A DNA stretch of 64,000 nt, taken from assembly GCA_963675295.2 (NCBI GenBank), contig CAXXKJ010000002.1, positions 1,664,001 through 1,728,000 of the forward strand, written 5' to 3'. A program made the translations under genes and the position numbers. The notes under the pieces are model-generated. The model was not told the DNA's origin and did no database searches. It saw nothing but the letters and a program-made list of their open reading frames with translations. The DNA is from a bacterium (GTDB lineage: Bacteria > Electryoneota > Electryoneia > Electryoneales > Electryoneaceae). Of the stretch, positions 22,054 through 52,018 are shown piece after piece. Positions within the stretch are counted from its first letter, which is position 1. Each line of letters starts with the position of its first letter.

Positions 22054-22057
22054 TGTT

Positions 22058-22096: not shown

Positions 22097-22107
22097 CGCT
22101 CTTGCGG

Positions 22108-22126
22108 ATGTGCCAGATATGTGCCA
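22108..22126 (+). repeat. Putative integrase arm-type site (ATGTGCCA x2), left copy
   Basis: ATGTGCCAGATATGTGCCA recurs exactly at 33204-33222 and 35570-35588. Confidence 0.75.
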
Positions 22127-22169
22127 TATTTGCTGATACCATCTGGTACGATTAAGGAAATTTTGGAAA

Positions 22170-23264: not shown

Positions 23265-23716
23265 ACTGAAAATTCCCAAAATTCAATTTGACTGATTCAA
23301 CTTCTACTTCAGCGACCTTAGAAACCTTGTATTATCCTGTAAATTTAACAAAAACAATGTAATGTATTCAATAACTTGAAATCCGTCCTGAAAACACTCA
23401 TAATAGTACCAAGTGAAATCAGTGAAAAGGCGCATTAGGCTGGACCCAGGCACAAATTCGCCCAACAAACCGCAAGTTTACCGCACGTTGATATCCTGAT
23501 TCCCACTGAAGTTAGACCCCAGACAGCGACCACGACCATAGGGGTGTAAACCCCACTGAATCCGCAGGAAATGCGCGCGGAGCCAGGACAGTGACATTCC
23601 GACAAAACGACATATCGACATTGCTGTATTACCGGAAGATTGCAATGTCATGTTCAGCAGAATTTTGGCGAAATTGGCCACTTCTGATCCGGATTCGTGC
23701 AAGAAGAATTTGGGTC

Positions 23717-23744
23717 TTGACAAATTCGAAAACCGTCCTATACT
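23717..23744 (+). promoter_or_regulatory. Near-consensus sigma70 promoter of the replication operon
   Basis: TTGACA-16 nt-TATACT. Confidence 0.7.
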
Positions 23745-24028
23745 TAGAATAGGGCGCGCAGAACTGTTCGCTACCTCGACCTGACCAGACAGCAGACACC
23801 TTACCAGCGACACCCTACAGATTGGTGGATTGCTAAAACCCAGTATCCGGGATTCCCCATCCCGACGTTGGTTGCCCCAATCCATATAGTATCACCCGGC
23901 CGTGTTTCGGATTTCACTTCATCATCCCGCTTCCAGGGATAGCCCGTCCAGGAATTCAGTGGACGGGTTCCCTAACCCGTGGTGATGACTGAAAATGCAC
24001 GGAACATGATCACAACCAGGAGAAAGAC

Positions 24029-24262
24029 ATGGGACTACATACAGCAACAATCGAAATTCTTGAAGACGATCGCCTTTGTGCGGCGGTCATGAAAGCGGTG
24101 GGAAGGAACTATTCAAACCGCTATATCCAGCGTCAATTCGGCGTTTCAAGACGCCAGCTGGAAAGAATCGTCCAGACGTATTCGAATCCGCAAAATGGAA
24201 TGAAATCAATCGGGAATAAGAATGTGAATGGATGGCTAACCGTAGTAAAATCAAAAACATAA
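24029..24262 (+). CDS. Small putative HTH DNA-binding protein
   Basis: AGGAG RBS; 'YSNRYIQRQFGVSRRQLERIV' HTH-like. Confidence 0.65.
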   Translation: MGLHTATIEILEDDRLCAAVMKAVGRNYSNRYIQRQFGVSRRQLERIVQTYSNPQNGMKSIGNKNVNGWLTVVKSKT

Positions 24263-24280
24263 ATAAATCGGAGCTAAAAT

Positions 24281-38154: not shown

Positions 38155-40812
38155 TCACTCGGCAACAGATCCATATTTCACGAACTCAATCGAGTCCGTC
38201 GCGTCAATCACAACTGGATCGCCATGCCCGATGAATGTGTGCAGCCGGTACGATCCCGGCTGGGCTCCGGACGGAATCGGCAAAGCCAGGCCGGAGAAGG
38301 TTCGTGTGCCGGGTGGAAGTGTCACCTGCCGCTGCAGCAACGGCGCGGTGACAGTCCCATCCGGCTTTTCAATGCGGATCCAGGCGGTTCGTGTCAGCGG
38401 CGAGTTGGAGCGATTGATCACGATGCCATCAAAGACGACATCCCCGCCGGACGGGGGAATCGCCGTTGTCACCGGAACCAGTGACAGCGTCAAATCGTCT
38501 GGGAGGAATGGCTCACGGTCGATCACCAGCACGCGGCCCTCGTTCGCGCCGAGCGGCACGCGCAATGATAAGAGCTGATCGCCAGATTGCGTCGTATGCT
38601 GCCCACTTAACACGTCGGTGACGACGTATTGGCTGTCAGGTTCGATCCAGACGGATGCCGGGAGGATGACATCCGGCGCGACGGCCTGTTGACTCAGGTT
38701 CAGGGCGACGACTGCCGCAGGCAAGCCCGGAGCGTGGCGCAGGTAACTGTAGACAGTTTCTCCCGCGCTGTTGGACAGCTGGCGCACGAAATTACTTCGC
38801 AGTGCCGGTAGTCGACGGCGGGCGTCGACGAGGCGCGCGTAGTGATCGAACAGGTTGTGTGGATCGTGCTCCCAGTTGATCGGACCACGCATCAGTGTCG
38901 CGCCGATTTCCTGCCCGGCGTACAGCATCGGGACGCCGGGAATGGTCAGCAGCATCGTCGCTGCGGTACGTGTTTGTTCGGGCGTGTGCTCGCTGATGTA
39001 ACGGGTTTCGTCATGATTCTCGATGAACCTGAACGGGAACGATTCAGCGGGGAAGTAGTCACCCTGGTTGGTGATCCGGCCATGGACCTGGCTGGCGCTG
39101 GACCCATTGAACAGCAGCCGGAAACCGCCCGGATCGAAGTACAGAGGCCAGTCCATCACCGAATCAAAGCGGTCGGTGAGGATGGAAAAGTCCATCACGG
39201 ACGCTTCCCCCTGAAGAAACAGGTCGGGCTTGCGTGTTTTCAGGGCAACGCGCCAGTCCGCCCAGAAGTCTGGACGACGTTCATGCACGCCCCAGGCGAC
39301 ATCCGCGCGGAACCCATCGACATATGCTTCTTCCAGCCACCACTGGCACATCTCGATCATGTAGCGGCGCACATCCGGGTTATCGTAATTCAGGTTCGGC
39401 AGTGAATCCCAGTCGTTGTAGTAGGTATAGTCGCCGTTTTCGTCACGGTCATACCAATCCCAGGTGGGGGAGATGGTGCCTTTCTCCGCCGCATCCATGA
39501 ACCACGGGTGCCAGATGCCGGTGTGGTTGATTGGAATGTCCAGCAGCACACGGATGCCGAGGGCGTGCGCAGCGTCCATCAGCGCCCGGTAGTCGTCCAT
39601 TGTGCCAACGTCCTGCTCGACGGCGTAATAGTCGGCGATCGCGTAGGAGTTCCACGGCGGCGCTTCGAAGATCGGCATGATCCAGAGGCAGTTGACGCCG
39701 AGTGTAACCAGCCGTGGCAGGTCGGCGGTGATCGCGTTCAGCTGCCCGCTCGGATGATGGTAGCGTGGGAAGATCTCGTACACCACCGCGTCCCGAATCC
39801 AACCGGCGGCCTCGTCAAGGTCCACCGGATCGGCGGTGCAGGATTGATCCACTTCGATCAGCAGCTGGGCGTGGGTGATGTTCCCGTCCGGATCGTCCAG
39901 CCGCAGGTGATAGCGGTAGGCGCCCGGTGCGGATGGTGTGGCGCAGGTCGCGTGCGCGGTGTTTGAGCCGGCCAGCGGCGTGGGGGCCGGGTTGGCGGGG
40001 TCAACCGTCCACTGGAACTGCAACGGTTGGTCCTGCGGATCGTAACTCTGCCCGGCGAACAGGTGAACGGTGCTGCCGGAGATGGTCGCCGAACGGATGG
40101 CTACCGGGGCTTGGGGGACGTGCTGAACGACGGTAAGCGTGTCAGACGTGCCGGTGAAGCCGTCGTGTTCGGCGGACAGCACAAACTGGTTGTCGCCAGG
40201 ACGAAGAGTGACCGGCACCGCAAACACACCCTGCTGCGGGTCGAGGGTCACGTTCTGCGATCCATCCGTCCACAGGTGCTGCAGGGTCATGCTATCGACG
40301 GGCGGAATCTGCTCGCACCAGAGGGTAGTCGTGTCCTGCACGGTTTCATGATCCGTGGTCAGCAGCAGCGGGGCGGGTGTGGCGTTTCCGGGCTCAAGGT
40401 GCCAGCCCAACAGGAAATGGTTGTCCCAGTTCCCGGCGTTATCGGTGAACAGGAAGTCGATGGCTGTTGTTGTCGCTAGCGTGGGAAAGGTCACTGTCCA
40501 CAGGCCGTCGCCGTCGGGTTGCATCGGCGAACGCACAGCGGCGTCTCCAGCGGGGACGGTTCCGTCCGGCCACAGAGAGGGCGGCGGTGCCTGCCAGCCG
40601 TTGATTCCCCAGTGCAGCCACACCGGACCCGAGGGTAACGTGCCCCGATCCGCGAGGTCATAGCTGATCGTGATCGAGTCGCCCGGCGTCGGCCACGTTG
40701 GCTCCCAACCAGCCCAATCGGCGTGAGTTGGTTGAACCATGGCAAACAGCAGCACAACAATCAGGAGCAGCGGCGTTCGCCGCGGGATGGTCGTCCGTGT
40801 GGTAATGATCAT
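38155..40812 (-). CDS. Secreted GH13 alpha-amylase family glycoside hydrolase with N-terminal carbohydrate-binding/PKD-like domains and C-terminal Ig-like domain
   Basis: GH13 regions 'DIPINH', 'GFRADVA', 'GEA', 'FIENHD'; Trp-rich N-terminal module 'WLHWGINGW...WDN'. Confidence 0.9.
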   Translation of the reverse strand: MIITTRTTIPRRTPLLLIVVLLFAMVQPTHADWAGWEPTWPTPGDSITISYDLADRGTLPSGPVWLHWGINGWQAPPPSLWPDGTVPAGDAAVRSPMQPDGDGLWTVTFPTLATTTAIDFLFTDNAGNWDNHFLLGWHLEPGNATPAPLLLTTDHETVQDTTTLWCEQIPPVDSMTLQHLWTDGSQNVTLDPQQGVFAVPVTLRPGDNQFVLSAEHDGFTGTSDTLTVVQHVPQAPVAIRSATISGSTVHLFAGQSYDPQDQPLQFQWTVDPANPAPTPLAGSNTAHATCATPSAPGAYRYHLRLDDPDGNITHAQLLIEVDQSCTADPVDLDEAAGWIRDAVVYEIFPRYHHPSGQLNAITADLPRLVTLGVNCLWIMPIFEAPPWNSYAIADYYAVEQDVGTMDDYRALMDAAHALGIRVLLDIPINHTGIWHPWFMDAAEKGTISPTWDWYDRDENGDYTYYNDWDSLPNLNYDNPDVRRYMIEMCQWWLEEAYVDGFRADVAWGVHERRPDFWADWRVALKTRKPDLFLQGEASVMDFSILTDRFDSVMDWPLYFDPGGFRLLFNGSSASQVHGRITNQGDYFPAESFPFRFIENHDETRYISEHTPEQTRTAATMLLTIPGVPMLYAGQEIGATLMRGPINWEHDPHNLFDHYARLVDARRRLPALRSNFVRQLSNSAGETVYSYLRHAPGLPAAVVALNLSQQAVAPDVILPASVWIEPDSQYVVTDVLSGQHTTQSGDQLLSLRVPLGANEGRVLVIDREPFLPDDLTLSLVPVTTAIPPSGGDVVFDGIVINRSNSPLTRTAWIRIEKPDGTVTAPLLQRQVTLPPGTRTFSGLALPIPSGAQPGSYRLHTFIGHGDPVVIDATDSIEFVKYGSVAE

Positions 40813-41148
40813 CAGGTTCCTCGGTTCGCAGCCAGCTGTGCACGTGGTTTCCGGACTCTGGTATCACAATCCTGCGTGATGAAGAAATGATACGGAGGTC
40901 GCGTTCAAGCGGCAAGCGTCCGTGTGACTTCCCGGAAATTGGTTGCCAGGGATTATCTGAGCGAACAGGTTGGAGGTAAGGAGTTTTGCCTCCATTCTCA
41001 GTCGGTTTGCAAGTCTTTTCTTTTCGGAACGCTTGCTCTACCGACTTTGTTTGATTATCGTACAAAGTACACAGAAACGCTACCACGCCATCACCGTCCT
41101 CGTGTGCAATTGGAACCGTGATGACACCATTTAAGCACGGGACGACTT

Positions 41149-42963
41149 GTGAAATCACGAGCCATCGTACTCACACTGTTGTTGGTCGCGGTCAGTCTGG
41201 CTGCCAATCCGATCCTCAGTGTCAGCCTTGCCCAGATCGGTGATTTGATCTGGACGGAGGACTTTAACAATCTCGACAACTGGATTGTTGCCACCGGAAA
41301 CGGGGCGTGGGGCTGGGGTAACGGCGAGCTGCAATTCTACCACGCAGACAACGTGTCCATCGTCGAGATTCCGGATGATCCGGGCAACACCGCACTGAAG
41401 ATCCTCGCCCGCGAGCAGAGCGGTCCCGGCATTGTCGACCAGTGGGGCAACCCGTTGAATCATACGTCTGGCCGGGTATCCTCCCAGTCGCTGGTATCGG
41501 TGAAGTATGGTGTGATCGAAGTGCGTGTCCGTGTGCCGGACCTGGACCTCGGCGGCTGGCCGGCGATCTGGATGCTGGGCACGTCCAACTACAACTGGCC
41601 TCGACGTGGCGAACTGGACATTATGGAGATGGGGTCAACGCAGGCGTTCCGTGATCTGCACGACGAACACAACGGCGGCAACGGACAGAACAATTCCACG
41701 GTCAACCAGGTTGTCAGCGCGAACGCGATCTTCTATTCGGCCGACGCGGTCACTCCGGACAACCCGAGCGGCGCGGCGAGCTTGTCGTGGGACCCGGAGG
41801 ATGTCAGCTGCCGGCCGTATTACAACTATGACGATCCATTCACCGATCGGTTCCTAACCTACCGGCTGTACTGGGACGAGAACAGCCTGCGCTACACGGT
41901 GATCGACGGCGAGGACGAGTTTGACCTCTACGCCGAGCCGTTCGCGATTGACAGCGTTTCGGCGGAGTTTCAGGAACCGTTCTTCTTCACGATCAACCTG
42001 GCGATTGGCGGGGTGTTTACGGACGTGTTCAACCTCGGCGATCCGGGGTCTGGTGAACCGGTGTCGATGCCGTTTCCGGCGGAGATGTACGTCGATTACA
42101 TCAAGGTGTACGAGTGGAACGGGCAGGGCGCGGTTCAGCTTGGCCCGCCGGTGAACCAGGGCGGCACGTTTGGCATTTTCACCGACCTGACGCCGGCCGA
42201 CGGCGCGTTGACGGTGGGCGATGACGCTGAGATCTATGTCTGGGAAGGCACGTTGTCGGAGGGCAGCATCCCGCCGTACGAGGGCGACAACGGGATCTCG
42301 TGGGTCACGAACGGGCTCGGCTGGTTCGGAGCGGGGATCATGTCGGTGCAACCGGTGAACCTGTTTTCGTTCGGGGATGGCCACCTCAAGTTCATGATCA
42401 ACATCCCGCCGGAGGTAACGTTCAAGATCGGCATCATCGACGCGTGGGGGAACCAGTCGTACGTCACCTTCCCCGCACATCAGACAACGTACGGGCTGGT
42501 CCGTGACGGTCAATGGGGCCAGGCCGCGATCCCGGTCAGCGACATCCGTGGCGAATTCATCGACTTACGGATGTTGAGTTACGAGTTTGTCATCCTTGAG
42601 GAGAATGGGGTGGCCTGCGAGTTCGCGCTCGATGACATCTACTGGGACGGTGGCGGCGAGGTGCATGTTGTCGAAACAGACCATGGTTCGGCGCTGCCCA
42701 CGTTCCAGCTGCATCCGGCCTACCCGAACCCGTTCAACGCGACGACGCAGGTGACGGTGGATCTTTCCGTGCCGGCACAGCTGAAGCTGTACGTGTACAA
42801 CACGGCCGGGCGGCAGGTCGCCGTGCTTGCCGATGGGGTATTCTCCGCGGGGCAGCACAGCCTGGCGTTCAAGGGGTCCGATCTGGCGAGCGGGTTCTAC
42901 TTTATCCAGGCGACAGTACAAGGTCAGCTCAGTCAGGTGCGGAAGATTGCGTTGATTCGCTAG
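41149..42963 (+). CDS. Secreted GH16 beta-glucanase (laminarinase-like) with T9SS-type sorting domain
   Basis: 'WGWGNGELQFY', 'WPAIWMLG', catalytic 'GELDIME', 'NLAIGG', 'MYVDYIKVY'; 'YPNPFN...RKIALIR'. Confidence 0.92.
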   Translation: MKSRAIVLTLLLVAVSLAANPILSVSLAQIGDLIWTEDFNNLDNWIVATGNGAWGWGNGELQFYHADNVSIVEIPDDPGNTALKILAREQSGPGIVDQWGNPLNHTSGRVSSQSLVSVKYGVIEVRVRVPDLDLGGWPAIWMLGTSNYNWPRRGELDIMEMGSTQAFRDLHDEHNGGNGQNNSTVNQVVSANAIFYSADAVTPDNPSGAASLSWDPEDVSCRPYYNYDDPFTDRFLTYRLYWDENSLRYTVIDGEDEFDLYAEPFAIDSVSAEFQEPFFFTINLAIGGVFTDVFNLGDPGSGEPVSMPFPAEMYVDYIKVYEWNGQGAVQLGPPVNQGGTFGIFTDLTPADGALTVGDDAEIYVWEGTLSEGSIPPYEGDNGISWVTNGLGWFGAGIMSVQPVNLFSFGDGHLKFMINIPPEVTFKIGIIDAWGNQSYVTFPAHQTTYGLVRDGQWGQAAIPVSDIRGEFIDLRMLSYEFVILEENGVACEFALDDIYWDGGGEVHVVETDHGSALPTFQLHPAYPNPFNATTQVTVDLSVPAQLKLYVYNTAGRQVAVLADGVFSAGQHSLAFKGSDLASGFYFIQATVQGQLSQVRKIALIR

Positions 42964-43374
42964 CTTCTTGGCAGTAGTTCGGCAGCATTGAACAGCGAAA
43001 GATAACCCGTCAGATTGGCGGGTTATTCATCTCATGTATGGGTAGCTTTGCATACTTAGGAGAGCCAAATGGACTCCAAACCTGTGGCACAACAGATCGA
43101 TTTGATGGATTACAGCGCCGGAACTGGTTTCATAGCTTCTGGATCGCACTAAACAGACGCTGTGGTTGTCGCTAAAGATACAGTCACTTTCACAACATGG
43201 AGATCAACTGAATTTTTCTGGAATCAAATACTTTCAATGGTTTACCCCATTGTTGCATTCTATATTCCACCTAATTGGAAACGTGTGATGTTCATTGAGT
43301 ACCAATCGTTTTTCCTCATCGAAAGGGTTCATGTTCGCATGAACCGGGGTCCACATGCACTGAAGGGAGGAAGT

Positions 43375-45231
43375 ATGAAAGGCGTTCTCACATTCTTGTT
43401 GATCCTCGCAGTTCCGCTGCTGGCCGTTGCCACTCCGTATACTCAGATCGGCTACGAAACCTACGAGACACCGAATTGGGTCGAGAACTATGTCGACTGG
43501 ACGCGTACGTCCGATGGTGGCGTGGCGGCATTGTACTACGCCTATGAGTGGAACTCGTACTACTATCCCGGCATCTTCGGCTTCCAGCTGTTCAATGCCA
43601 CTGGTGAAATGCGGTTGGAATGGACGGATGATTTCGTTGGGTCTGACGATTGGCCGGACGCGATCTGTGAAATGCAGGATGGTTCATTCGCCATGTTTTT
43701 CTGTGAATGGAGCACGGAAAGCGTGGACGTTCGCCTGGTAGATCCGACAGGGAACGAGCTCGATCCGATGACGATCGATCTGGGCTTCGCGCCGCGTGAC
43801 CTGCATGTCTATCCGATCCCATTGGCCGCGGGTGGCGGGTTGATGCTGGCGGTGAACCCCTCGGTTGGTGATTACTGGCACTTGGTGCGTGTCTCCAGCG
43901 ACTTTAATGTGGTGTACGATGTGTCCACCGCGTTAGACGATGGCAAACGTCTGATCATGCACCTGCTGGGTGACGGCGTGCTCGGCATGTTCGGCTACAA
44001 CGATGGCCCGTGCCTGTACAAGGCGAACTTCGCGGATGGCTCGCCGGTCGGGTTCAACCGTTTCGCGGCGGCTGACTACAGCAACATCCATCTCGCGGAA
44101 CGGCTGACACCCTCTCTGTTCGCCATGGTGTATTCCAGCAACAGCGTAAACTTTATCCTCAAGCTGGTGCGGGCAAACGGCAACCCGGTCGCGACACTCG
44201 AGCTGAACGGTATCGACGATGTCGCCGGAGTCTTCCTGAATGGCGAAGGGGGCGTGTTTGTGCTGGGTGACCAGCGTACAGATCCGGCACTTACCTGGGC
44301 GACCGTTCTCCAGTCGTACGACAACCAGGGAACCAGGTTGTGGACGCAGTATGTCGACCTCGGTCTTGAGCTGCCGAACCAGGAGCAGTGGTCGAACAGT
44401 GTCCGGCCGCTGGATGCGTGGAAGCTCCCGAACGGGCAGCTCCTGGTGGCAGAGTTGCGTGAATACCTGCCGCCGGATCCGGCAATGGTCTGGCCGATGG
44501 AACGGGACATCGCCTTCCACCGAATGGGTGTCGACAACGATCTGTCCGCTGTCATTGACCTGCAACTGCAGAGCGAAAGGGCGAGTGGATCTCGTGGGCA
44601 GGTCAGAGAAATCCCACTGAAGATCTGGCATCAGTCGGACTCTCCAGTCAATGTGGACGTCTGGTTTGACTGGTCGTGGACGATGGAAGATCCAAACGAT
44701 CCGTACGCCCTCCCATGGTATGTGCACAACACCGAACCCGCGCAGAGTGTGACACTGCTTCCTGGCGAAGTGTATTACGATCCGGAATTCGAGTACGTCA
44801 TCCCGGACCTTCCGGATAACGCCAGGTACAACGATGTGGCGATTCGTTACAACGTCGGGCACTATCCGGATGTGATCTGGTCGTCTGACTATTTCACGTC
44901 ATACATCTCGGGGAATGAACCCGCCGGGAACACGGAGGCCGCCGTTCACGCCAACGAGCTGCCGGACGCGTACGAACTGGCGTCGGTGTACCCGAACCCG
45001 TTCAATCCGACGACGACTGTCGGCGTGACGCTGCCTCAGACGGCGGAGCTGTCGGTCACGGTACATGACGTGCTCGGTCGTCAGGTCGCGCAGTTGGCGC
45101 AAGGCCAGTTTCGTGCCGGTGCGCACCGGTTCGTGTTTGACGGGTCGAATCTCGCGAGCGGCGTGTATTTTGTCCATGCGACGGTGCCTGGTGAGCTGAA
45201 CGCGGTGCAGAAAATGGTGCTGATGAAGTAA
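43375..45231 (+). CDS. Secreted protein of unknown function with divergent Ig-like domain and T9SS-type sorting domain
   Basis: GGAGG RBS before ATG 43375, signal peptide, 'YPNPFNPTT...QKMVLMK'. Confidence 0.85.
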   Translation: MKGVLTFLLILAVPLLAVATPYTQIGYETYETPNWVENYVDWTRTSDGGVAALYYAYEWNSYYYPGIFGFQLFNATGEMRLEWTDDFVGSDDWPDAICEMQDGSFAMFFCEWSTESVDVRLVDPTGNELDPMTIDLGFAPRDLHVYPIPLAAGGGLMLAVNPSVGDYWHLVRVSSDFNVVYDVSTALDDGKRLIMHLLGDGVLGMFGYNDGPCLYKANFADGSPVGFNRFAAADYSNIHLAERLTPSLFAMVYSSNSVNFILKLVRANGNPVATLELNGIDDVAGVFLNGEGGVFVLGDQRTDPALTWATVLQSYDNQGTRLWTQYVDLGLELPNQEQWSNSVRPLDAWKLPNGQLLVAELREYLPPDPAMVWPMERDIAFHRMGVDNDLSAVIDLQLQSERASGSRGQVREIPLKIWHQSDSPVNVDVWFDWSWTMEDPNDPYALPWYVHNTEPAQSVTLLPGEVYYDPEFEYVIPDLPDNARYNDVAIRYNVGHYPDVIWSSDYFTSYISGNEPAGNTEAAVHANELPDAYELASVYPNPFNPTTTVGVTLPQTAELSVTVHDVLGRQVAQLAQGQFRAGAHRFVFDGSNLASGVYFVHATVPGELNAVQKMVLMK

Positions 45232-45249
45232 GCGTGTGCAGATTCAGAC

Positions 45250-45287
45250 AATCCCGCTGCGAGGTTATTTCGTGGCGGGATTTTTTG
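45250..45287 (+). terminator. Rho-independent terminator
   Basis: AATCCCGCTGCGA...TCGTGGCGGGATT followed by a T run. Confidence 0.7.
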
Positions 45288-45482
45288 TGTCGTCTCTGAT
45301 GCAATTGAAGGGAAGATAGGTGAAAAAGCGAATACAACCAGAGTTGGTGCTGTAGTACACAATGCAATTATCGAGTATCAAGTTGCAACGAGTTCACTAG
45401 TTCTGTTGCATGAATGTGACCTGCATCCTTGTGTGACTCGATTTCTGCTCCGTACCTTAAATGAAACCCAGCGGAGTTCGTT

Positions 45483-46700
45483 ATGGACACCACCTTTTTT
45501 GCGCCGGCAGAGGTCTACGGCGACGCCGAACTGCGCCATCAGCGTGAGTTAATCCGTTCGGTGCCGATGCTGGAAATCTTACTCAACTCCGTTCATGTCA
45601 GCGTTCTGGTGCTCAACAATCTCCGTCAGATCGTGTACTACAACAAGGTTTTCTACGATCTCGTGCACGCTCTTGGCACAGACGAAGTGTATGGCAGACG
45701 GCCTGGCGACGTTTTTCGTTGTATCCACGCGAAGGAGCTGCCGAGCGGTTGCGGCACGACCGAATTCTGCCGCACCTGCGGCGCGGTAAAGGCCATCCTC
45801 GATTCGCAGAAGGGGGCTAGCCGCCAGGAAGAATGCCGTATCATGACGCAGAAAGACGTCGAGGTCAACGCGTTGGACGTGCGCGTCTGGTCAACGCCGT
45901 TTGAATACCAGGACGTTCCATTTACCATCCTCTCGCTGGTCGATATCAGCAACGAGAAACGCCGGACCGCGCTGGAACACATCTTCTTCCACGACATCAT
46001 GAACGCTGCAACGAGTGTTCTCGGTTACGCCTCGATGATGCGGTTCGATGAAGAAGCGAACCCGGAGAATCTCGGTGTGCTCGAGGAGAGTGTGTCGCTG
46101 CTCATCGACGACATCGCGGCGCAACGGGATCTCAAGTACGCCGAACAGGGCGAGTTGCAGGTCGATGTAAAGCAGCACAATAGCGGTACGATTCTGGATA
46201 GTCTCTTCACCCGTTTCCGGCATCAGTTCAACGCTGAGGGACGCGAGCTGCAGCTGGACAGCAAGATTGACCGAGTCGAATTTGAGACTGATTTTAGTTT
46301 GCTGAACCGTGTGCTCGGCAACATGGTGAAAAATGCGTTCGAAGCAACGGCGAAGGGGCAGGCTGTGCGTGTGGGCTGCCGTAAATACCGGAACCACCTG
46401 GAGTTCTGGGTGAACAATCCAACAGCGATACCTCGCAACCATCAGCTGCAAGTGTTCAATCGATCCTTCTCAACCAAGGGGAACGGGCGCGGGTTGGGCA
46501 CGTACAGCATGCGTCTGCTGACGGAAAACTACCTCAACGGCCGCCTCAGTTTCGTCACCTCGAAAGAACAGGGCACGACCTTTTCCGCGTACCTGCCGAT
46601 CCGCTTCGCCGACCACAGCAACGGATGGCGGGACGGGATTCCGACGTATCCGATAGGCGACCGTAGCGTGGCGGGACACGAAATACCCCGCAGCGGATAG
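45483..46700 (+). CDS. Sensor histidine kinase with Cys-rich PAS-like input domain
   Basis: 'CIHA...CGTTEFCRTC', H-box 'FFHDIMN', 'NMVKNAFEA', 'FSTKGNGRGLG'. Confidence 0.9.
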   Translation: MDTTFFAPAEVYGDAELRHQRELIRSVPMLEILLNSVHVSVLVLNNLRQIVYYNKVFYDLVHALGTDEVYGRRPGDVFRCIHAKELPSGCGTTEFCRTCGAVKAILDSQKGASRQEECRIMTQKDVEVNALDVRVWSTPFEYQDVPFTILSLVDISNEKRRTALEHIFFHDIMNAATSVLGYASMMRFDEEANPENLGVLEESVSLLIDDIAAQRDLKYAEQGELQVDVKQHNSGTILDSLFTRFRHQFNAEGRELQLDSKIDRVEFETDFSLLNRVLGNMVKNAFEATAKGQAVRVGCRKYRNHLEFWVNNPTAIPRNHQLQVFNRSFSTKGNGRGLGTYSMRLLTENYLNGRLSFVTSKEQGTTFSAYLPIRFADHSNGWRDGIPTYPIGDRSVAGHEIPRSG

Positions 46701-46736
46701 CCACGGGGTGAATTGTTGTTGTTGCGCTTTATGCGG

Positions 46737-47051
46737 TCAGTCGATATAAAACCTTTTACGGTCCAAGCCAAGCGCGTCCAGAATTTCTTCCGCGGTACAG
46801 TCGCCACAATCTGACCACACGCGGTATTTCTTCTGTTCTTCTTCCCAGATGAAATACAAGACTGTCGAGCCCGCACACTGCCCGGGTGTATAGCAGACCG
46901 GGCAACGGTTCATGCCGATGCGGTAGTCCTTTTCGTACGACCAGAATGTGTAGCCGCTTTCGATCAGCTTGCCGACGACATACTTGCAATCCTTAACGAC
47001 GTCAGCGGGTCTTCTTTCGGGCTTCTTCTTTGCTAATCTGTCGAACATCAC
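46737..47051 (-). CDS. Small Cys-rich protein resembling a primase zinc-binding domain
   Basis: 'RCPVC...YRVWSDCGDCTAEEILDALGL'; GGAGG RBS; overlaps upstream stop. Confidence 0.7.
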   Translation of the reverse strand: MMFDRLAKKKPERRPADVVKDCKYVVGKLIESGYTFWSYEKDYRIGMNRCPVCYTPGQCAGSTVLYFIWEEEQKKYRVWSDCGDCTAEEILDALGLDRKRFYID

Positions 47052-47542
47052 CGCCTCCCGGAGCTGGGATCACGCCGGTTCAGCAGTGCTTGGCGGTCTT
47101 TCTCCTTCTGGCGCTGCTGCGCACTACGCTCCTTATCGTAGTTCCGATCCAGCATCATCAGGTAAAGATCAGCCATCTTGAAGTCTTCATCCGTCATTTT
47201 GCTGCGTTCCTGCCAGTATGCCTGCTGGTCGAATTCCGCATGCAACAGGTTTTCGTTGTAGCCCAGGCACTCGCAGAAGTCGGATTCGGTCAGACCGCAG
47301 GGCACGCGCCCGTAGCGTTGCAGCTTGATCTTGCGCTTTTTCCAATCGTACGTAAGCCCCCAGGAGCAGTCGCGGCGATGGCGGCAGTAGTTGTTGAGGC
47401 AGAACGGGCACGACAAGGCGATGCCGCCCGCTTCGAAGTTGTGCCACCAGAGTCCGGCGTCGTTCGCCGCCTGAAGCAAGTCATTGGCGACGTTCTGGAC
47501 GACCTCGACGTCTGGCAGTTCTTTGATGAACAGCTTTTTCAT
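47048..47542 (-). CDS. Cys-rich protein resembling a primase zinc-binding domain, with helical C-terminal extension
   Basis: AAGGA RBS before ATG 47542; 'LSCPFC...KIKLQRYGRVPCGLTESDFCECLGY'. Confidence 0.7.
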   Translation of the reverse strand: MKKLFIKELPDVEVVQNVANDLLQAANDAGLWWHNFEAGGIALSCPFCLNNYCRHRRDCSWGLTYDWKKRKIKLQRYGRVPCGLTESDFCECLGYNENLLHAEFDQQAYWQERSKMTDEDFKMADLYLMMLDRNYDKERSAQQRQKEKDRQALLNRRDPSSGRR

Positions 47543-47828
47543 GGCGGTTCCTTTTGTTGTTGTTGCGGTGGGATGGTAGAGGAGGGGTGAAGCCTTTGAC
47601 GTGGTTGCCATAGCAGACATTCATGTCAAGGCCCAATTCTTTGAGGATCACTGTTTCGCTACAACCGTTGAAGCACGTGAGGACTAACCTGCTATTGCCG
47701 GTATGCCACTCGCCTTCGAGTTCGTTTCCGCAGTGTGGGCACTTCGCAAAGAAGCCGTCGTACACATAATGCGGATCACAACCCATGATTGATAGCATGA
47801 CACCAATCAGCCGGATAGCATAATTCAC
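47481..47828 (-). CDS. Small Cys-rich protein resembling a primase zinc-binding domain
   Basis: GGGGGG RBS before GTG; 'GFFAKCPHC...LVLTCFNGCSETVILKELGL'. Confidence 0.7.
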   Translation of the reverse strand: MNYAIRLIGVMLSIMGCDPHYVYDGFFAKCPHCGNELEGEWHTGNSRLVLTCFNGCSETVILKELGLDMNVCYGNHVKGFTPPLPSHRNNNKRNRHEKAVHQRTARRRGRPERRQ

Positions 47829-47947
47829 TTTATTCCCCCCATGTCAAGTAGGACAACAACAACAAGTTGTAGCTTACAGTACCTGGTGAGTAAGTACAAT
47901 ACATACAAAGAGTTATGATAAACTCTATGTATATATGTAGTTACACT

Positions 47948-49792
47948 CTAGAAGGGCACCGACTCACCCGAATTGTTGTTGTTGCTCTTCTTGTCCTGCC
48001 TTTCGGGTAGGTCGTATGTGCCCCGCGAGACGCACACGAGAAGTCCTTCGGCAGTCATGCGTTTCAGTACCCGGCTGCAGTAGGCGTACGAAATCCCGGT
48101 CGCAGCCACGATATCGGTCAGGCACATGGCCTTCTTCTCGATCCCCAGCACGTCGATGATCTTGCGCCGGGACCCTTCGACCGACGGCTGGTCTTCGTCG
48201 ATCTGACCGGTGATCTGCCATCCGGTGTGTTCAAGTGGGTCCTCTTCGTCGATCTCACGTTTGAATTCCATCCGGTGCCGGGCTTCGTCGATATCACGAC
48301 CGGTGACAAACAATTCGGCTTCGTCAGCACCGCGCTTGCGGCGCATGACAAGGATGGTATCAGCAGCACCGGAAAGACCGAAGCTGCCACTGATCTCGAC
48401 CAGTGGATCGGCTTCGTCAGTAGCCTTGCGGGTGTGGTGGACAAGGCAGATGCAGACCTTGTGCTTCAGGGCGAGGGTCTGCAATGCGGCAGCGACTTGC
48501 GTGTCGTAGTCGTACAGCGACTGCTGTTTCTCCTGTGGTTCACGCCAGCGTCCAAAGGTGTCGATCACAATCAGCTTCGGGTTGTCGGCCTGCCGCAGCC
48601 AGTAGTCCAGCTGCGAAAGGGACGGTGCCTGCGCAATAGTAAAAAAGAGTCTTTTGAGGCTTTCCCTTTCCAGATACATCCCGCCAAGCTGTTTCATCCT
48701 GTACTGGATACGGCGTTCACTGTCTTCCAGTGACACAATCAGCACCTCGCCAGGGTCGCACTTGCCGAGCCCAAGGGCCCGCTGGCCGGAAGCGACCGCC
48801 ATGCCCATCTCAAGGGCGATCCACGACTTGCCGGACTTCGGTTTGCCCGCGAAGATGCACAATCCCTCGCAGATCAGGCCGGGCACGACCCACACCGGCG
48901 GGTCCATCACCTTTGCCATCAGATCCTGACCGCAGTACGAAGAATTCGATGGTAGCAGCTGTGCTTGCGTCGTTTCCGGTACTTCCTTGGCCCGGGTCGC
49001 GACTGGCGGAAGACTGCGGGATACCTGGGACACGATTTCTTCCAATTCTTCCGGCTTGTGACCCAGTGCGAACCAGTCGGTAACATCCTTCACCCCCTTG
49101 AACGGCGGCAGACAGAGGACAAGAGCAGCAAGAGCAACAAGACTGTCTGCTACCATCTTCTGATGTTTGAGCCCGGGCTCGTCACCATCGCAGAGCACCA
49201 CCATCTTGCGGTCCTTGAAATACGAGGCATGGTTACGACCCCACTTCCCAGCGCCGCCGTGGTTGCAGGTAGCAACAAAACCGTGCTTGCGAAGGGTCTC
49301 GACGTCCTTTTCGCCTTCGACCACGTAGATGTACTGGTCCATCGGAGCACGCAGGCACTCCGGCAGGTTGTAAGGGATCGGCTTGACCTTCTTCAGGTTC
49401 CAGACCCACTGGGATTCGTCGTCCGGGTCGATACGGCGGGCGAGGAACTTCTTCCCGGGCTTCCGCACGATCTGGTACAACAGCACATTGTCTTCGGTGT
49501 AGTAGTCGTACACCGCTTCGTAGTCTTTCGACAGACCGTACCCTAGCATCTCGGGGGTGATGCCGAGGTGCGATTCGATATCGCGGCTGTCGCATCCAGC
49601 GTGGCACTTGAACTTGATCTTGCCGAACGGGGTGACATAGACAGAAAGCGACGGGTTCTTGTCGCCGCGTCCCTTGCCGTGTGTTGGCAAAGGACAACAG
49701 CAGACAAAGCCATCGCCTTTGATGTCTCCGGGGTTCAAGCCTTCCTGTTTGCACAGGGACCAGGCGTTGAACAGGTTGTCTGTCAGGTTCAT
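47948..49792 (-). CDS. Primase-helicase: N-terminal Zn-binding domain, TOPRIM, RepA/AAA_25 helicase, C-terminal winged HTH
   Basis: 'CP...H...DKNPSLSV...CHAGC'; TOPRIM 'VVEGEKDV', 'CDGDEPG', 'KDVTDW'; Walker A 'GKPKSGKS', 'VIDT', 'HHTRK'; C-terminal HTH. Confidence 0.92.
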   Translation of the reverse strand: MNLTDNLFNAWSLCKQEGLNPGDIKGDGFVCCCPLPTHGKGRGDKNPSLSVYVTPFGKIKFKCHAGCDSRDIESHLGITPEMLGYGLSKDYEAVYDYYTEDNVLLYQIVRKPGKKFLARRIDPDDESQWVWNLKKVKPIPYNLPECLRAPMDQYIYVVEGEKDVETLRKHGFVATCNHGGAGKWGRNHASYFKDRKMVVLCDGDEPGLKHQKMVADSLVALAALVLCLPPFKGVKDVTDWFALGHKPEELEEIVSQVSRSLPPVATRAKEVPETTQAQLLPSNSSYCGQDLMAKVMDPPVWVVPGLICEGLCIFAGKPKSGKSWIALEMGMAVASGQRALGLGKCDPGEVLIVSLEDSERRIQYRMKQLGGMYLERESLKRLFFTIAQAPSLSQLDYWLRQADNPKLIVIDTFGRWREPQEKQQSLYDYDTQVAAALQTLALKHKVCICLVHHTRKATDEADPLVEISGSFGLSGAADTILVMRRKRGADEAELFVTGRDIDEARHRMEFKREIDEEDPLEHTGWQITGQIDEDQPSVEGSRRKIIDVLGIEKKAMCLTDIVAATGISYAYCSRVLKRMTAEGLLVCVSRGTYDLPERQDKKSNNNNSGESVPF

Positions 49793-49860
49793 CGGTACTC
49801 CTTTGGTTGGTGGTACTGCGGAGAGTGTGAGGACGCTGGCAGGGAGCCAGCAGGGCGTAC

Positions 49861-49889
49861 AAGATAGCGTGTTGTCTTTACGTTGTCAA
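49861..49889 (-). promoter_or_regulatory. sigma70-type promoter of the primase-helicase operon
   Basis: Minus strand TTGACA-17 nt-TATCTT, 8 bp inside the right inverted repeat. Confidence 0.7.
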
Positions 49890-49990
49890 TACCCAACAGC
49901 GCAACAACAACAATTTGCTGTTGCCGCCACCTCCCTGCGGTCGTATTTTCCCTCACTTCTGATTGGGTCCTGGTTAACGCGGAGTAGAGG

Positions 49991-52018
49991 ATGAAGACGT
50001 GGTCACTTCTTGGCGTCCTGACGCTGTTGTTTGCCACCGTGGCATTCGGACAGGCGGTCGAACGCACGCATGATATTGTCCCGGAAGACTATTTCACGCA
50101 GGTATTTCTCACCGATTGCGCGGTATCCCCGGACGGTGAGCTGACGGCATTTGTCGATTACCGTTGGGACAAGGTGAATGATCGCCGCTCGCGCGACTTG
50201 TGGGTGGTGAACAACGAGACGCTGGCGACTACGCGTCTCACGTTTGACCCGGGCAACGAGTTCAGCCCGCAGTGGTCCCCGGACAGCAAGTGGGTCTATT
50301 TCCTCGGTCACATGAGCCGTGGCGGCGACATGACCAAGGCACCGTACGATGGCAGCTCGCAGGTCTGGCGTGTCAACCCGGACGGCAACGGCCTGATGCC
50401 GGTGACCAGCGTGCCGGGCGGGATTTACGGGTACGAGCTGTCGGCGGACGGCAAAACGTTGTATTACACCCTCGCGAAAGAGATCAGCGTCGGCGAGTGG
50501 CAGGACATGAAGGCCACGTACGCCAATGTCACCTACGCCGAGGGCACGAACGAAGTCTGCGAGCTGTGGAAGCTGAACCTGGTGACGTGGCGTGCGGACA
50601 AGCTGTTCGCGCCCGAGCTGCACATCCATGAGTTTTCCGTCTCGCCGAACGAGCAGAAGGTTGCGATGATCACTACCGAGAGCGGCAAACTGATCGAGCT
50701 CGAGGGGTGGTCCAATGTGACGATCTACGATGCCGAGACCGGCGACTCGTATGACCTGTACGACCAATTGTGGCGTGACGATGCGCCGTCCCCGCACGGG
50801 TGGCTCGGCGAACCAACGTGGAACGATTCCGGCAACAAGCTGGCGTTCACCGTCGACTTTGACGGCTATCCGGCCGAGGTAATTGTCTCCGACTTTTCGG
50901 AACGTGCGGCGAATCTGATGCGCATGCCGCGTCCGGAGATGGTGCACGTCGCCGGGCATATCCACTGGCTGCCGGAGAGTGACGAGGAGATTGCGTTTGT
51001 CGGGCACAACCTCGCCCGTCAGCGGGTCTACAGCGTGGAGCTGGGTACCGGTGACTACAAGACGTTGACCAACGGCGACGTGGTCATCGACAACTTCGGG
51101 TTCACCGGTGACGGGGAAGATCTGGTCGCGATCCAGAGCACGTTGACCTACTACCAGGATCTCGTCTACTACAAGGGCAACAAGTCAACGCGGATCACGA
51201 AGCTGAATCCGCAGGTGGACACATGGAAGCTTCCGCAGATCCAGATCGTCGAGTGGGAAGGTGCGAACGGCGACATGGTCTCCGGCATTCTTGAGCTTCC
51301 GCCGGACTATGAGCCGGGCCAGAAGCTGCCGCTGCATCTCACGTTGCACGGTGGCCCGACCGTTGCCGAACCGTATTGCTTCCAGTTGTGGATTTACGGA
51401 CGCGCGTCCTTCGCCGCCAAGGGCTGGGCGATGCTGTCGCCGAATTATCGTGGCTCGCTGGGGTACGGTGACGAGTTCCTCACCGACCTGATCGGTCACG
51501 AGAACGATTGGGACGTGAAGGACATCATGGCCGGCGTTGACTATCTCATCGCGGAAGGTATTGTCGACGAGGACAAGATGGGTGTCAGCGGCTGGAGTAA
51601 CGGCGGATTCCTGACCAACGCGCTGATCGCGTCGAACCGTTTCAAGGCGGCGAGCACCGGCGCTGGTGTGCTTGACATGACGATGCAGCTGGTGATGGAG
51701 GATACTCCTGGCCACGTGGTCAACTTCATGCAGTCGTTGCCGTGGGAGAATCCGGAAGCGTACATCCACGGATCCCCGATCTTCACGTTCCACGATGGCA
51801 TCAAGACGGCGGTGTTGATCCACGTCGGCGAAAATGATCCGCGAGTTCCGCCCGCGCACAGTGTCGGCCTGCATCGCATGCTGAAGCATTACCTCGGCGT
51901 CAACAGCGAATTGATCATCTACCCGGGTGCCGGTCACAACCTGACCAAGTACACGCACCGTCTCGCGAAAGCGAAGTGGGACCACGCGTGGTTCGACAAA
52001 TACGTGCTCGGGAAGTAA
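49991..52018 (+). CDS. S9 family (prolyl oligopeptidase/acylaminoacyl) peptidase
   Basis: Signal peptide, PD40-like propeller, 'HGGP', 'NYRGS', nucleophile 'GWSNGG', 'DPRV', 'GH'. Confidence 0.93.
   Translation: MKTWSLLGVLTLLFATVAFGQAVERTHDIVPEDYFTQVFLTDCAVSPDGELTAFVDYRWDKVNDRRSRDLWVVNNETLATTRLTFDPGNEFSPQWSPDSKWVYFLGHMSRGGDMTKAPYDGSSQVWRVNPDGNGLMPVTSVPGGIYGYELSADGKTLYYTLAKEISVGEWQDMKATYANVTYAEGTNEVCELWKLNLVTWRADKLFAPELHIHEFSVSPNEQKVAMITTESGKLIELEGWSNVTIYDAETGDSYDLYDQLWRDDAPSPHGWLGEPTWNDSGNKLAFTVDFDGYPAEVIVSDFSERAANLMRMPRPEMVHVAGHIHWLPESDEEIAFVGHNLARQRVYSVELGTGDYKTLTNGDVVIDNFGFTGDGEDLVAIQSTLTYYQDLVYYKGNKSTRITKLNPQVDTWKLPQIQIVEWEGANGDMVSGILELPPDYEPGQKLPLHLTLHGGPTVAEPYCFQLWIYGRASFAAKGWAMLSPNYRGSLGYGDEFLTDLIGHENDWDVKDIMAGVDYLIAEGIVDEDKMGVSGWSNGGFLTNALIASNRFKAASTGAGVLDMTMQLVMEDTPGHVVNFMQSLPWENPEAYIHGSPIFTFHDGIKTAVLIHVGENDPRVPPAHSVGLHRMLKHYLGVNSELIIYPGAGHNLTKYTHRLAKAKWDHAWFDKYVLGK

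What the first reader, a model, noticed from the sequence alone, without database searches (positions are those of the whole stretch)
46711..49915. Recombinase-free 3.2 kb element with 18 bp terminal inverted repeats and a primase-helicase
Seen: a perfect inverted repeat (AATTGTTGTTGTTGCGCT) closes tightly around a promoter, a Zn/TOPRIM/RepA/wHTH primase-helicase and three small genes, inserted between two ordinary host genes (10 bp after the kinase stop). There is no integrase, transposase, relaxase or tRNA target. The terminal AATT (or AT) could be a target duplication, leaving GTTG...CAAC (or TGT...ACA) ends. Established: TIR-bounded replicative elements such as casposons and Polintons encode their own integrase. 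Inference: an undescribed minimal replicon or non-autonomous self-copying element whose ends are Rep-binding sites. Best candidate for a new system in this window.
Basis: partly seen in the sequence, partly recalled or inferred. Interest (0 to 1): 0.85.

Follow-up and report, generated by a model that had tools for sequence, protein, structure and literature searches.

The report
Integrase-less primase-helicase replicon island
A 3.3 kb piece of foreign DNA in a bacterial chromosome carries its own DNA-copying enzyme, and its matching inverted ends are most likely two of five docking sites for that enzyme rather than transposon ends.

Summary
The 18-bp perfect inverted repeat (46711-46728 / 49898-49915) is real and non-random. 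It is not only terminal: the same (TTG)4-based 18-mer occurs five times in the element. Those are 5 of the genome's 10 (TTG)4 sites.

Two internal copies face each other across a 103-bp AT-rich spacer at the 3' end of the Zn/TOPRIM/RepA/wHTH gene. That is the layout of an iteron origin. 22 of 69 distant homologue loci show the same layout, against 0 of 69 control windows, and so does a paralogous element that uses a different motif.

A congener has the kinase-peptidase junction without the element, so this is an indel. The genome-specific DNA is 46655-49920. It ends 5 nt outside the right repeat but 56 nt outside the left one, and that 56 nt includes a terminator-like hairpin. I found no target duplication, no att-like repeat, no second copy and no recombinase fold.

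Best reading (0.58): a compact iteron replicon module of plasmid or satellite type, lodged by a non-site-specific event. The "TIR" would be the promoter-proximal operator plus a distal Rep site. A transposon-like element is not supported. Related copies do sit at different loci in two congeners without any integrase, so the insertion route is unexplained.

The parts
46655..46710 (-). Genome-specific left margin outside the left repeat. It holds a terminator-like hairpin (46709-46685 on the minus strand) directly downstream of the element's last ORF. It also supplies the kinase's last codons and its stop.
   Evidence: Homology to G001 ends at 46654. Similarity to G001's 92 nt is no better than shuffles: score 19.0 against mean 18.4, with 427 of 1000 shuffles at least as high. 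Hairpin of 10 pairs, 7 of them GC.
46711..46728 (+). Site 1, the left arm of the 18-bp inverted repeat (AATTGTTGTTGTTGCGCT). It lies 8 nt after the ORF C stop.
46737..47051 (-). ORF C, 104 aa, Cys-rich, no known family
   Evidence: No Pfam, PHROG or NCBIfam hit. Model pLDDT 70.6. 0 of 132 PDB matches at E<=0.001.
47048..47542 (-). ORF B, 164 aa, with five invariant Cys and a long C-terminal helix. No known family.
   Evidence: 2 homologues among 1.84 billion representatives. Alignment A5. Model pLDDT 71.8. 0 of 191 PDB matches at E<=0.001. Found in 1 of 79 genomes of the phylum, G000 only.
47552..47569 (+). Site 2, a 15/18 copy of the 18-mer, just upstream of the ORF B ribosome-binding site
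47481..47828 (-). ORF A, up to 115 aa, a CxxC...CxxxC zinc-ribbon-like protein. The true start may be an internal ATG.
   Evidence: Only sub-threshold zinc-ribbon hits. Promoter-like site 47847-47820 overlaps the GTG start.
47850..47867 (-). Site 3, a 15/18 copy and the distal arm of the origin-like inverted pair. It is followed on the minus strand by a TTGACA promoter-like site.
   Evidence: (I2, I14)
47868..47970 (.). 103-bp AT-rich spacer with an internal hairpin, the candidate unwinding region
   Evidence: GC falls to 0.455 in the window 47600-47999, against 0.55-0.59 around it. 47840-48000 folded as ssDNA gives z = -4.22, with 0 of 200 shuffles as stable.
47971..47988 (+). Site 4, a 17/18 copy and the proximal arm of the origin-like pair. 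It lies inside the last codons of rep and encodes the NNNN tract.
   Evidence: (I6). The closest homologue P0002 lacks the NNNN tract.
47948..49792 (-). rep: a 614-aa protein with a Zn-binding N-terminus, a TOPRIM primase, a RepA/DnaB-like SF4 helicase and a C-terminal winged helix-turn-helix
   Evidence: Pfam AAA_25 9.3e-27, MarR_2/AbiEi_4 about 0.003. phrog_239 1.1e-36. Profile against PDB: RSF1010 RepA 1.1e-12, T7 gp4 4.6e-7, Twinkle 6.7e-6, winged-helix proteins 1.6e-4 to 9e-3.
49861..49889 (-). Promoter-like site for rep (TTGACA, 17 nt, TATCTT)
   Evidence: 10 of 12 matches. The motif TGTTGGGTATTGACAAC is shared with the G001 B copy.
49898..49915 (-). Site 5, the right arm of the 18-bp inverted repeat. 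It ends 12 nt upstream of the -35 hexamer and is the candidate operator.
49916..49920 (.). 5 nt between the right repeat and the point where homology to G001 resumes
   Evidence: Homology to G001 starts at window 49921.

Best explanation
The segment 46655-49920 is a compact, self-contained iteron replicon module lodged in the chromosome. It holds one initiator gene (Zn/TOPRIM primase, RepA-like helicase, winged-helix DNA-binding tail), its origin, its operator and a three-gene accessory operon ending in a terminator.

The (TTG)4-based 18-mer is the binding site of the initiator's winged-helix domain (inferred). Sites 4 and 3 face each other across a 103-bp AT-rich spacer at the 3' end of rep and form the origin. 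There the protein would load itself on both sides, melt the spacer and prime (inferred by analogy with SaPI Rep). Site 5, just upstream of the -35 hexamer, would act as the autoregulatory operator. Sites 2 and 1 would be distal cis sites for copy control or handcuffing, comparable to the crr region of phage P4.

The 'terminal inverted repeat' is then simply the outermost pair of these five sites. The module came from a small plasmid or a satellite-like element. It entered between the kinase and the peptidase by an event that left no site-specific signature: it replaced 92 nt, made no duplication and left no att site. Shown: the anatomy, the indel, the lack of a recombinase, and the origin layout across the family. 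Inferred: binding, replication and the insertion route.
For: 1. Five copies of the 18-mer lie in 3.2 kb, against 0.04 expected. They are 5 of the 10 (TTG)4 sites in the genome.
2. Sites 3 and 4 are inverted around an AT-rich 103-bp spacer that overlaps the rep stop.
3. On one measure (best inverted repeat within -60 to +250 of the rep stop), 22 of 69 distinct distant homologue loci score 13 or more. 0 of 69 same-size windows inside the gene do. Element A scores 13 and element B scores 15. In the 17 strongest loci that I picked, the arms are two tandem 7-9 nt units, matching (TTGTTG)x2 here.
4. The paralogue B (49% identical) has the same layout with a different motif. TTGTTTGGGTAC occurs twice in the genome, both times as an inverted pair 36 nt apart just after its stop. 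A related copy lies upstream of the gene.
5. The winged-helix region is less conserved than the Zn-binding, TOPRIM and helicase domains in all 5 comparisons. It is 0.60 against 0.84 for the helicase with the 76% homologue. It is 91% identical between the two B copies, which share one motif.
6. Site 5 abuts a 10-of-12 promoter match, and a terminator-like hairpin follows site 1.
7. In SaPI, iterons immediately downstream of rep flank an AT-rich region in opposite orientation and are bound by a C-terminal winged helix (PMC9371898, passages read).
8. G001 has the kinase-peptidase junction without the element.
9. No recombinase family or fold was found in the four proteins.
Against: - In the 17 relatives inspected, iteron copies cluster at the rep stop. 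Distal copies more than 1 kb away are rare: one 2-mismatch copy, in L075. The promoter-distal and operon-end copies of element A are therefore unusual for the family, and their exact identity (18/18) is not required by this reading.
- The right edge of the inserted DNA coincides with site 5 to within 5 nt. A random capture event does not predict that.
- The winged-helix assignment rests on weak hits (E 0.0025-0.009), although homologues carry HTH Pfam families.
- No free circular or empty-site form was seen, but only assembled contigs could be laid. Nothing here shows that the module replicates.
- Whether the difference from G001 is an insertion or a deletion is not formally settled, because G002 and G003 lack the kinase at this locus.
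Confidence: 0.58

Rival explanations
1. It is the decayed remnant of a larger integrase-bearing island (a P4- or PICI-like satellite or a small integrative element). The recombinase, att sites and other genes were deleted, leaving the replication module. The repeats are still Rep sites.
For: - The same genome has classical islands. One is tmRNA, then a tyrosine integrase, then a D5_N primase-helicase at window 21675-26746.
- Paralogues 3 and 4 lie 13 kb and 2 kb from tyrosine recombinases.
- G001 carries a truncated winged-helix fragment at the site where G000 has element B, so such modules do decay in place.
- A 5.4-kb circular metagenome contig pairs a homologue with a serine recombinase.
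Against: - G001's junction holds only 92 unrelated nt and no remnant.
- The insert runs exactly from operator to terminator with intact ORFs.
- B copies are under purifying selection (dN/dS 0.29).
- Three separate loci (A, B in G000, B in G001) all lack a recombinase in or beside the insert. That would need three parallel losses.
Confidence: 0.2
2. It is a true mobile element defined by its inverted ends. It would be moved either by a transposase supplied in trans or by a Rep-dependent route, for example a circle whose two terminal sites form a 36-bp palindrome that is cut and joined into the chromosome.
For: - The 18/18 terminal repeats are perfect, whereas the internal copies are 15-17/18.
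- The right end is within 5 nt of the homology break.
- The element is absent in the congener.
- The related B module sits at different loci in G000 and G001 at 84% DNA identity, without an integrase.
Against: - No target duplication or flanking direct repeat.
- The left homology break is 56 nt outside the repeat.
- There is a single copy of the element, and no other pair of such ends in the genome.
- B copies have no terminal inverted repeats.
- 0 of 24 loci recovered by motif scans encode any of the four proteins.
- No transposase-like fold was found in ORF B or ORF C. ORF A was not modelled.
Confidence: 0.14
3. The repeat is a chance product of low-complexity (TTG)n sequence and has no function.
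For: The other five (TTG)4 sites in the genome lie outside this element. The one examined lies in coding sequence for an Asn run. Site 4 itself encodes NNNN.
Against: - 5 sites in 3.2 kb against 0.04 expected, with 0 of 100 shuffles reaching 5.
- The matches extend beyond (TTG)4 to a shared 18-mer.
- Four of the five sites are wholly or partly non-coding and sit at the promoter, the origin, a gene junction and the terminator.
Confidence: 0.03

Closest known systems
SaPI / PICI Pri-Rep replication module with its iteron origin
   Same: The initiator combines primase and helicase functions with a C-terminal winged helix. The origin lies immediately 3' of rep, with iterons on both sides of an AT-rich region pointing in opposite directions (PMC9371898, passages read; element anatomy).
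   Different: The helicase here is RecA-type SF4 (AAA_25, RSF1010 RepA-like), not the AAA+ type of SaPI Rep. The primase is a TOPRIM. There is no integrase, att site, repressor or packaging gene. Extra sites lie at the promoter and at the operon end.
T7 gp4 / Twinkle-type primase-helicases and RSF1010 RepA
   Same: The order Zn-binding region, TOPRIM, SF4 helicase. Profile hits to 1q57 (4.6e-7), 8e2l (6.7e-6) and 1g8y (1.1e-12).
   Different: There is an added C-terminal winged-helix domain and a cognate repeat array. The protein therefore looks like an initiator as well as a replisome component.
Phage P4 alpha protein with ori and crr (recalled, not checked in a call)
   Same: One polypeptide with primase, helicase and origin-binding domains. 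The same short repeats occur at the origin and at a distant cis-required region.
   Different: P4 alpha has a D5-type SF3 helicase, and P4 carries an integrase and integrates at a tRNA gene. A D5_N island of that kind exists elsewhere in this window and is unrelated to this element.
Minimal replicon of archaeal plasmid pRN1 (PMC4234260; only the abstract start in the listing was seen)
   Same: A replicon of about 3.1 kb made of a primase-helicase replication operon, an upstream promoter region and an essential sequence just downstream of rep.
   Different: It is a free plasmid, its primase is of the prim-pol type with an SF3 helicase, and it is archaeal.
Casposons and Polinton-like self-synthesising transposons
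   Same: Terminal inverted repeats around replication genes.
   Different: Those encode a Cas1 or rve integrase and a protein-primed polymerase, and they make target duplications. None of this is found here. Only the listing was seen.

Membership tests
Iteron replicon with a self-loading Rep (SaPI-type origin logic) | Initiator carries a helicase plus a C-terminal winged-helix DNA-binding domain | tested here: met
   AAA_25 at 9.3e-27. Weak MarR_2 and AbiEi_4 hits at residues 559-593. Profile hits to ArsR, AdcR and the RPA32 winged helix at positions 500-565. Homologues carry HTH Pfam families.
Iteron replicon with a self-loading Rep (SaPI-type origin logic) | Short repeats immediately 3' of rep, on both sides of an AT-rich region, in opposite orientation | tested here: met
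   Sites 4 and 3 with a 103-bp spacer. The same measure is met by 22 of 69 homologue loci against 0 of 69 controls.
Iteron replicon with a self-loading Rep (SaPI-type origin logic) | Rep binds its repeats and the segment replicates | not testable with these tools
   Needs a gel-shift assay and a replication assay.
PICI / P4-like phage satellites | Own integrase and att sites, often at a tRNA or tmRNA gene | tested here: not met
   No integrase family in the insert. The nearest tyrosine recombinase is about 24 kb away, at the tmRNA. No flanking direct repeat of 8 nt or more.
PICI / P4-like phage satellites | Regulatory and packaging or capsid-redirection genes | tested here: not met
   The three accessory ORFs hit no PHROG or Pfam family.
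TIR DNA transposons (IS elements, casposons, Polinton-like) | Transposase or integrase encoded, or matching autonomous copy in the genome | tested here: not met
   No such family or fold. No other pair of matching ends. No second copy of any of the four genes except rep paralogues.
TIR DNA transposons (IS elements, casposons, Polinton-like) | Target-site duplication flanking the inverted repeats | tested here: not met
   Only one shared 7-mer between the boundary zones, and it does not flank the element. The palindromic AATT cannot be told apart from the repeat itself, and G001's junction has no AATT.
TIR DNA transposons (IS elements, casposons, Polinton-like) | Inverted repeats lie exactly at the ends of the inserted DNA | tested here: inconclusive
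   The right end is within 5 nt. On the left, 56 nt of genome-specific DNA lies outside the repeat and is no more similar to G001 than shuffles are.
T7 gp4-like TOPRIM/SF4 primase-helicases | TOPRIM primase followed by a RecA-type hexameric helicase core | tested here: met
   phrog_239 at 1.1e-36. PDB profile hits to T7 gp4, Twinkle and RepA. Invariant EGEKD and GKS/T motifs in alignment A2.

The most novel reading that the evidence does not exclude
Elements A and B belong to an undescribed class of integrase-less 'replicon islands'. Each is a Rep gene with its own cognate repeats, and they move between chromosomal sites in this genus by a route that needs no dedicated recombinase. Three loci are occupied: A, B in G000 and B in G001.

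One concrete version: the free form is a small circle in which the two terminal sites of A abut as a 36-bp perfect palindrome. Breakage at that palindrome gives a linear molecule with Rep-bound inverted ends, which is captured at chromosomal breaks. This would replace a few tens of bases and make no duplication.
Probability: 0.13. Interest if true: 0.75.

Novelty: new variant of a known kind. Interest (0 to 1): 0.4.

Why it matters
If the main reading holds, this is a clean natural example of a very small bacterial replicon. One multifunctional initiator and five copies of its site fit in 3.3 kb. The origin rule (inverted short repeats right after the gene) is shared across a large, mostly unannotated family of TOPRIM-RepA-winged-helix proteins in phages, plasmids and islands. 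That rule could be used to annotate origins in metagenomic elements.

The open point is how such modules reach different chromosomal sites in related genomes without any integrase. If that turned out to be an active route, it would add a new way for replicons to enter chromosomes.

Tried and rejected
Close relatives of the element:
- A genome-contig scan with the protein found none.
- Metagenome and viral scans with alignment A2 gave only relatives of 35% identity or less. 558 of 592 and 492 of 592 candidate stretches were confirmed, and 80 were kept from each.
- The 76% homologue P0002 and the 44% and 38% homologues P0005 and P0006 are known only as proteins. Their DNA could not be fetched.
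- Phylum-wide genome searches with rep found matches in 8 of 61 genomes at E<=0.001 and in 5 of 79 at E<=1e-40, G000 included in both. Only G001 has a close copy.

Motif scans:
- The origin pattern gave 6 loci in genome contigs and 4 in viral contigs. The 18-mer gave 14 loci in viral contigs.
- 0 of these 24 loci encode any of the four proteins.

Free or excised forms:
- Four runs from one study, at most two samples, hold the stretch. Only assembled contigs could be laid.
- They show the integrated form. One 19,043-nt contig spans the whole stretch in the first sample, and an 815-nt contig bridges the right junction in the second sample.
- No circle joint and no empty-site joint were seen. Contigs drop rare variants, so this says nothing against excision.
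- No RNA holder was listed.

Circularity of homologue contigs: 2 of 160 loci have terminal direct overlaps (L124, L165) and 0 have terminal inverted repeats. Many of these loci are only parts of contigs.

Accessory ORFs:
- ORF B: the word-index search found only itself among 12 candidates. The Atlas gave no usable hit. A viral scan with A5 found nothing. The fold search gave nothing at E<=0.001.
- ORF C: the fold search gave nothing at E<=0.001.
- ORF B against ORF C by profile comparison: probability 0.35%.
- I considered ORF A as a minimal HNH nuclease and dropped the idea. It has no Pfam HNH hit at E<=10 and no similarity to the HNH ORF of element B.
- The weak resemblance of the ORF A and ORF C 'CxxC...LGL' motif to the primase N-terminus (BLASTP E 0.27-0.96) is not significant.

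Other checks:
- Rfam: 0 matches at E<=0.1 in 44000-52000.
- Serine recombinases in the genome: 0 hits.
- Outgroups for polarity: G002 and G003 lack the kinase next to the peptidase, so insertion versus deletion rests on parsimony only.
- Site Y in G002 is not a clean empty site. A different small gene occupies it.

Literature: the search (primase-helicase, terminal inverted repeats, mobile genetic element, integrase; 330 papers, 12 listed) showed only casposon and Polinton-type elements in the listing. I saw no paper describing an integrase-less TIR primase-helicase island, but only listings were seen and supplements were closed.

Full report
**1. The observation**

The two arms 46711-46728 and 49898-49915 are 18 nt long, perfectly complementary and 3169 nt apart. 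The repeat is not only terminal. With up to three mismatches the 18-mer occurs five times in the window, all inside the element: 46711 (+), 47552 (+), 47850 (-), 47971 (+) and 49898 (-). The expectation is 0.04, and 0 of 100 shuffles reach five.

The core (TTG)4 occurs 10 times in the 4.81-Mb genome, and five of those are here. Composition predicts 0.35. This is the only place in the genome with three or more (TTG)3 sites within 3 kb. Outside the element, the best match to the 18-mer has two mismatches and lies in a long ORF coding an Asn run. So the would-refute condition 'the repeat is common genome-wide' is not met.

**2. Genes**

All genes are on the minus strand.
- The 614-aa protein has a Cys/His N-terminus, a TOPRIM region, an AAA_25 RepA/DnaB-like core (E 9.3e-27) and weak winged-HTH hits at residues 559-593.
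- It matches phrog_239 'DNA primase/helicase' at 1.1e-36.
- A profile of it and 16 homologues hits RSF1010 RepA (1.1e-12), T7 gp4 (4.6e-7), Twinkle (6.7e-6) and several winged-helix proteins.
- The three small ORFs (115, 164 and 104 aa) are Cys-rich and hit no family.
- ORF B has only two homologues among 1.84 billion representatives and is found in none of the 78 other genomes of the phylum.
- Models of ORF B (pLDDT 71.8) and ORF C (70.6) match no solved fold at E<=0.001.

Nothing resembling a tyrosine or serine recombinase, a DDE or HUH transposase or a relaxase was found. ORF A was not modelled. Within the reach of these tools, 'recombinase-free' stands.

**3. Boundaries**

In congener G001 the kinase (89% identical) and the peptidase (95%) are adjacent. 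DNA homology runs up to window 46654 and resumes at 49921 (alignment). In between, G000 has 3266 nt and G001 has 92 nt.

The right repeat ends 5 nt from the break. The left repeat is 56 nt inside it. Those 56 nt, plus the 5 nt on the right, are no more similar to G001's 92 nt than shuffled sequence: score 19.0 against mean 18.4, with 427 of 1000 shuffles at least as high. They contain a 10-pair hairpin that reads as a terminator for the element's minus-strand operon. They also provide the kinase's last codons and its stop.

No direct repeat of 8 nt or more links the two boundary zones. G002 and G003 have the peptidase but no kinase upstream of it and no element. The element is therefore absent at this locus from 3 of 3 congeners, but only G001 gives a usable junction. 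Independent assemblies from at most two samples of one study show the integrated form, so it is not an assembly artefact.

**4. What the repeats are**

Sites 4 and 3 are inverted around a 103-bp AT-rich stretch that starts about 20 nt downstream of the rep stop. Site 4 lies in the last codons and encodes NNNN. GC dips to 0.455 there. The region folds far better than shuffles, with z = -4.22. Site 5 lies 12 nt upstream of a TTGACA-17-TATCTT promoter match for rep. Site 3 is followed by a second promoter match. Site 2 precedes the ORF B ribosome-binding site. Site 1 lies between the ORF C stop and the hairpin.

I then asked whether 'inverted repeats right after the stop' is a property of the family. 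Of the 160 loci fetched, 69 were distinct, had a match reaching the C-terminus and had 250 nt of downstream sequence.
- 22 of these 69 have an inverted repeat scoring 13 or more within -60 to +250 of the stop.
- 0 of 69 control windows inside the gene do.
- Element A scores 13 and element B scores 15.
- In the 17 strongest loci that I picked, each arm is two tandem 7-9 nt units, and the copies cluster at the stop.

This matches what is described for SaPI Rep proteins. There a C-terminal winged helix binds iterons placed immediately downstream of rep, on both sides of an AT-rich region and in opposite orientation (PMC9371898, passages read).

**5. The paralogous element B**

The genome has a second copy of this protein type at C2:1806471-1808408, 49% identical. 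It has no (TTG)n but has its own motif. TTGTTTGGGTAC occurs exactly twice in the genome, as an inverted pair 36 nt apart just after the stop. A related copy lies upstream of the gene.

G001 has this B gene at 84% DNA identity, but between different neighbours. The shared segment runs from the ribosome-binding site to the end of the palindrome. At G000's B site, G001 has only a truncated winged-helix fragment behind a 7-nt tandem array.

Neither B copy has a recombinase in or beside it. The nearest tyrosine recombinases are more than 100 kb away in G000 and 41 kb away in G001. Neither has terminal inverted repeats. The B genes are under purifying selection, with dN/dS 0.29.

Across the clade, the winged-helix region is less conserved than the Zn-binding, TOPRIM and helicase domains in 5 of 5 comparisons. 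It is 91% identical between the two B copies, which share a motif. That is what a specificity domain co-evolving with its site would look like. This is an inference, not a test.

**6. Reading**

The simplest account of all five sites is that they bind the initiator's winged helix. Sites 4 and 3 form the origin, site 5 is the operator, and sites 2 and 1 are distal cis sites. A distant cis-required repeat region is known from phage P4's crr, which I recall and did not check in a call. The 'terminal inverted repeat' is then the outermost pair of sites.

The module is complete from operator to terminator, with an intact rep. It sits in the chromosome with none of the marks of site-specific integration or transposition. 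I put 0.58 on 'iteron replicon module of plasmid or satellite origin, lodged by a non-site-specific event'.

**7. What does not fit neatly**

- Distal copies more than 1 kb from the stop are rare in the 17 relatives inspected, yet here the two outermost copies are the best conserved, at 18/18.
- The right edge of the foreign DNA coincides with site 5.
- Three loci in two genomes carry such modules without a recombinase.

These points keep two rivals alive: a remnant of an integrase-bearing island (0.20) and a mobile unit truly defined by its ends (0.14). For the remnant reading, the genome does contain classical islands. One is a tmRNA-integrase-D5_N island in this very window. Two further paralogues lie near tyrosine recombinases. 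A 5.4-kb circular metagenome contig pairs a homologue with a serine recombinase. Chance low-complexity sequence is rejected (0.03).

**8. Comparison with known systems, and novelty**

It works like a SaPI or P4-type initiator-origin pair and like small primase-helicase plasmid replicons. pRN1's 3.1-kb minimal replicon has an essential region downstream of rep (PMC4234260; only the abstract start in the listing was seen). The enzyme itself is of the T7 gp4 / RepA type.

It is not a member of the PICI or P4 satellites, because it has no integrase, att site or packaging genes. It is not a TIR transposon or casposon, because it has no integrase, no target duplication and only one copy. I rate it a new variant of a known kind and of moderate interest. 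Its main value is the family-wide origin rule and the unexplained integrase-less placement.

**9. Limits**

The DNA around the closest homologues therefore could not be seen. Only contigs, not reads, could be laid. Supplements were closed and none was needed for a claim made here.

Noticed in passing
window 21675-26746: A classical integrative island: a tmRNA gene (21675-22053), then a tyrosine integrase (22170-23264), then an 821-aa D5_N/DUF5906 primase-helicase (24281-26746). It is unrelated in sequence to the element studied.
   Followed up: partly
window 40755-45254: About 4.5 kb, including the 689-aa T9SS-tailed protein (43162-45231), has no counterpart at this locus in G001. The neighbourhood is variable beyond the element itself.
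   Followed up: no
L024 2948-3373 (G000 C2:1805947-1806372): A low-GC 141-aa HNH endonuclease ORF (PF01844, E 2.8e-11) sits between the upstream repeat and the rep ribosome-binding site of element B in G000. It is absent from the G001 B copy and looks like a free-standing homing-type endonuclease insertion.
   Followed up: partly
L024 3472-5409 versus L026 (G001 C49): The two B rep genes are mosaic. The primase part is 93% identical and the winged helix 91%, but the helicase core is only about 66% identical. This suggests recombination between element variants.
   Followed up: no
L219 (G001 C70:54000-57200), reverse strand about 340-560 and 872-1078: A long tandem array of 7-nt units (GGTAGTC, then GGTTGCC/GGTTGCT), followed by a truncated reading frame that matches only the last 69 residues of B's Rep (51% identical). 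This is a decayed module at the site that G000's element B occupies.
   Followed up: partly
G000 C2:2551977-2553719 (L012, L025): A third paralogue (29-32% identical) has an in-frame TAG and lies 13 kb from a tyrosine recombinase at C2:2566825-2567307. It may be a broken gene in an integrase-bearing island.
   Followed up: no
L124 (metagenome contig, 5413 nt): A 123-nt terminal direct overlap suggests a circle. It encodes a serine recombinase (Resolvase, E 3.9e-30) next to a TOPRIM/AAA_25/HTH homologue. It is a small circular element of the same Rep family that does carry a recombinase.
   Followed up: partly
L106 about 4490-4640 and other homologue loci (L131, L095, L085, L120): Long arrays of 8-9 nt tandem repeats lie just after the rep stop, up to 14 copies of TGTTACAT in L106. 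These are candidate origins in unannotated viral and metagenome contigs.
   Followed up: partly
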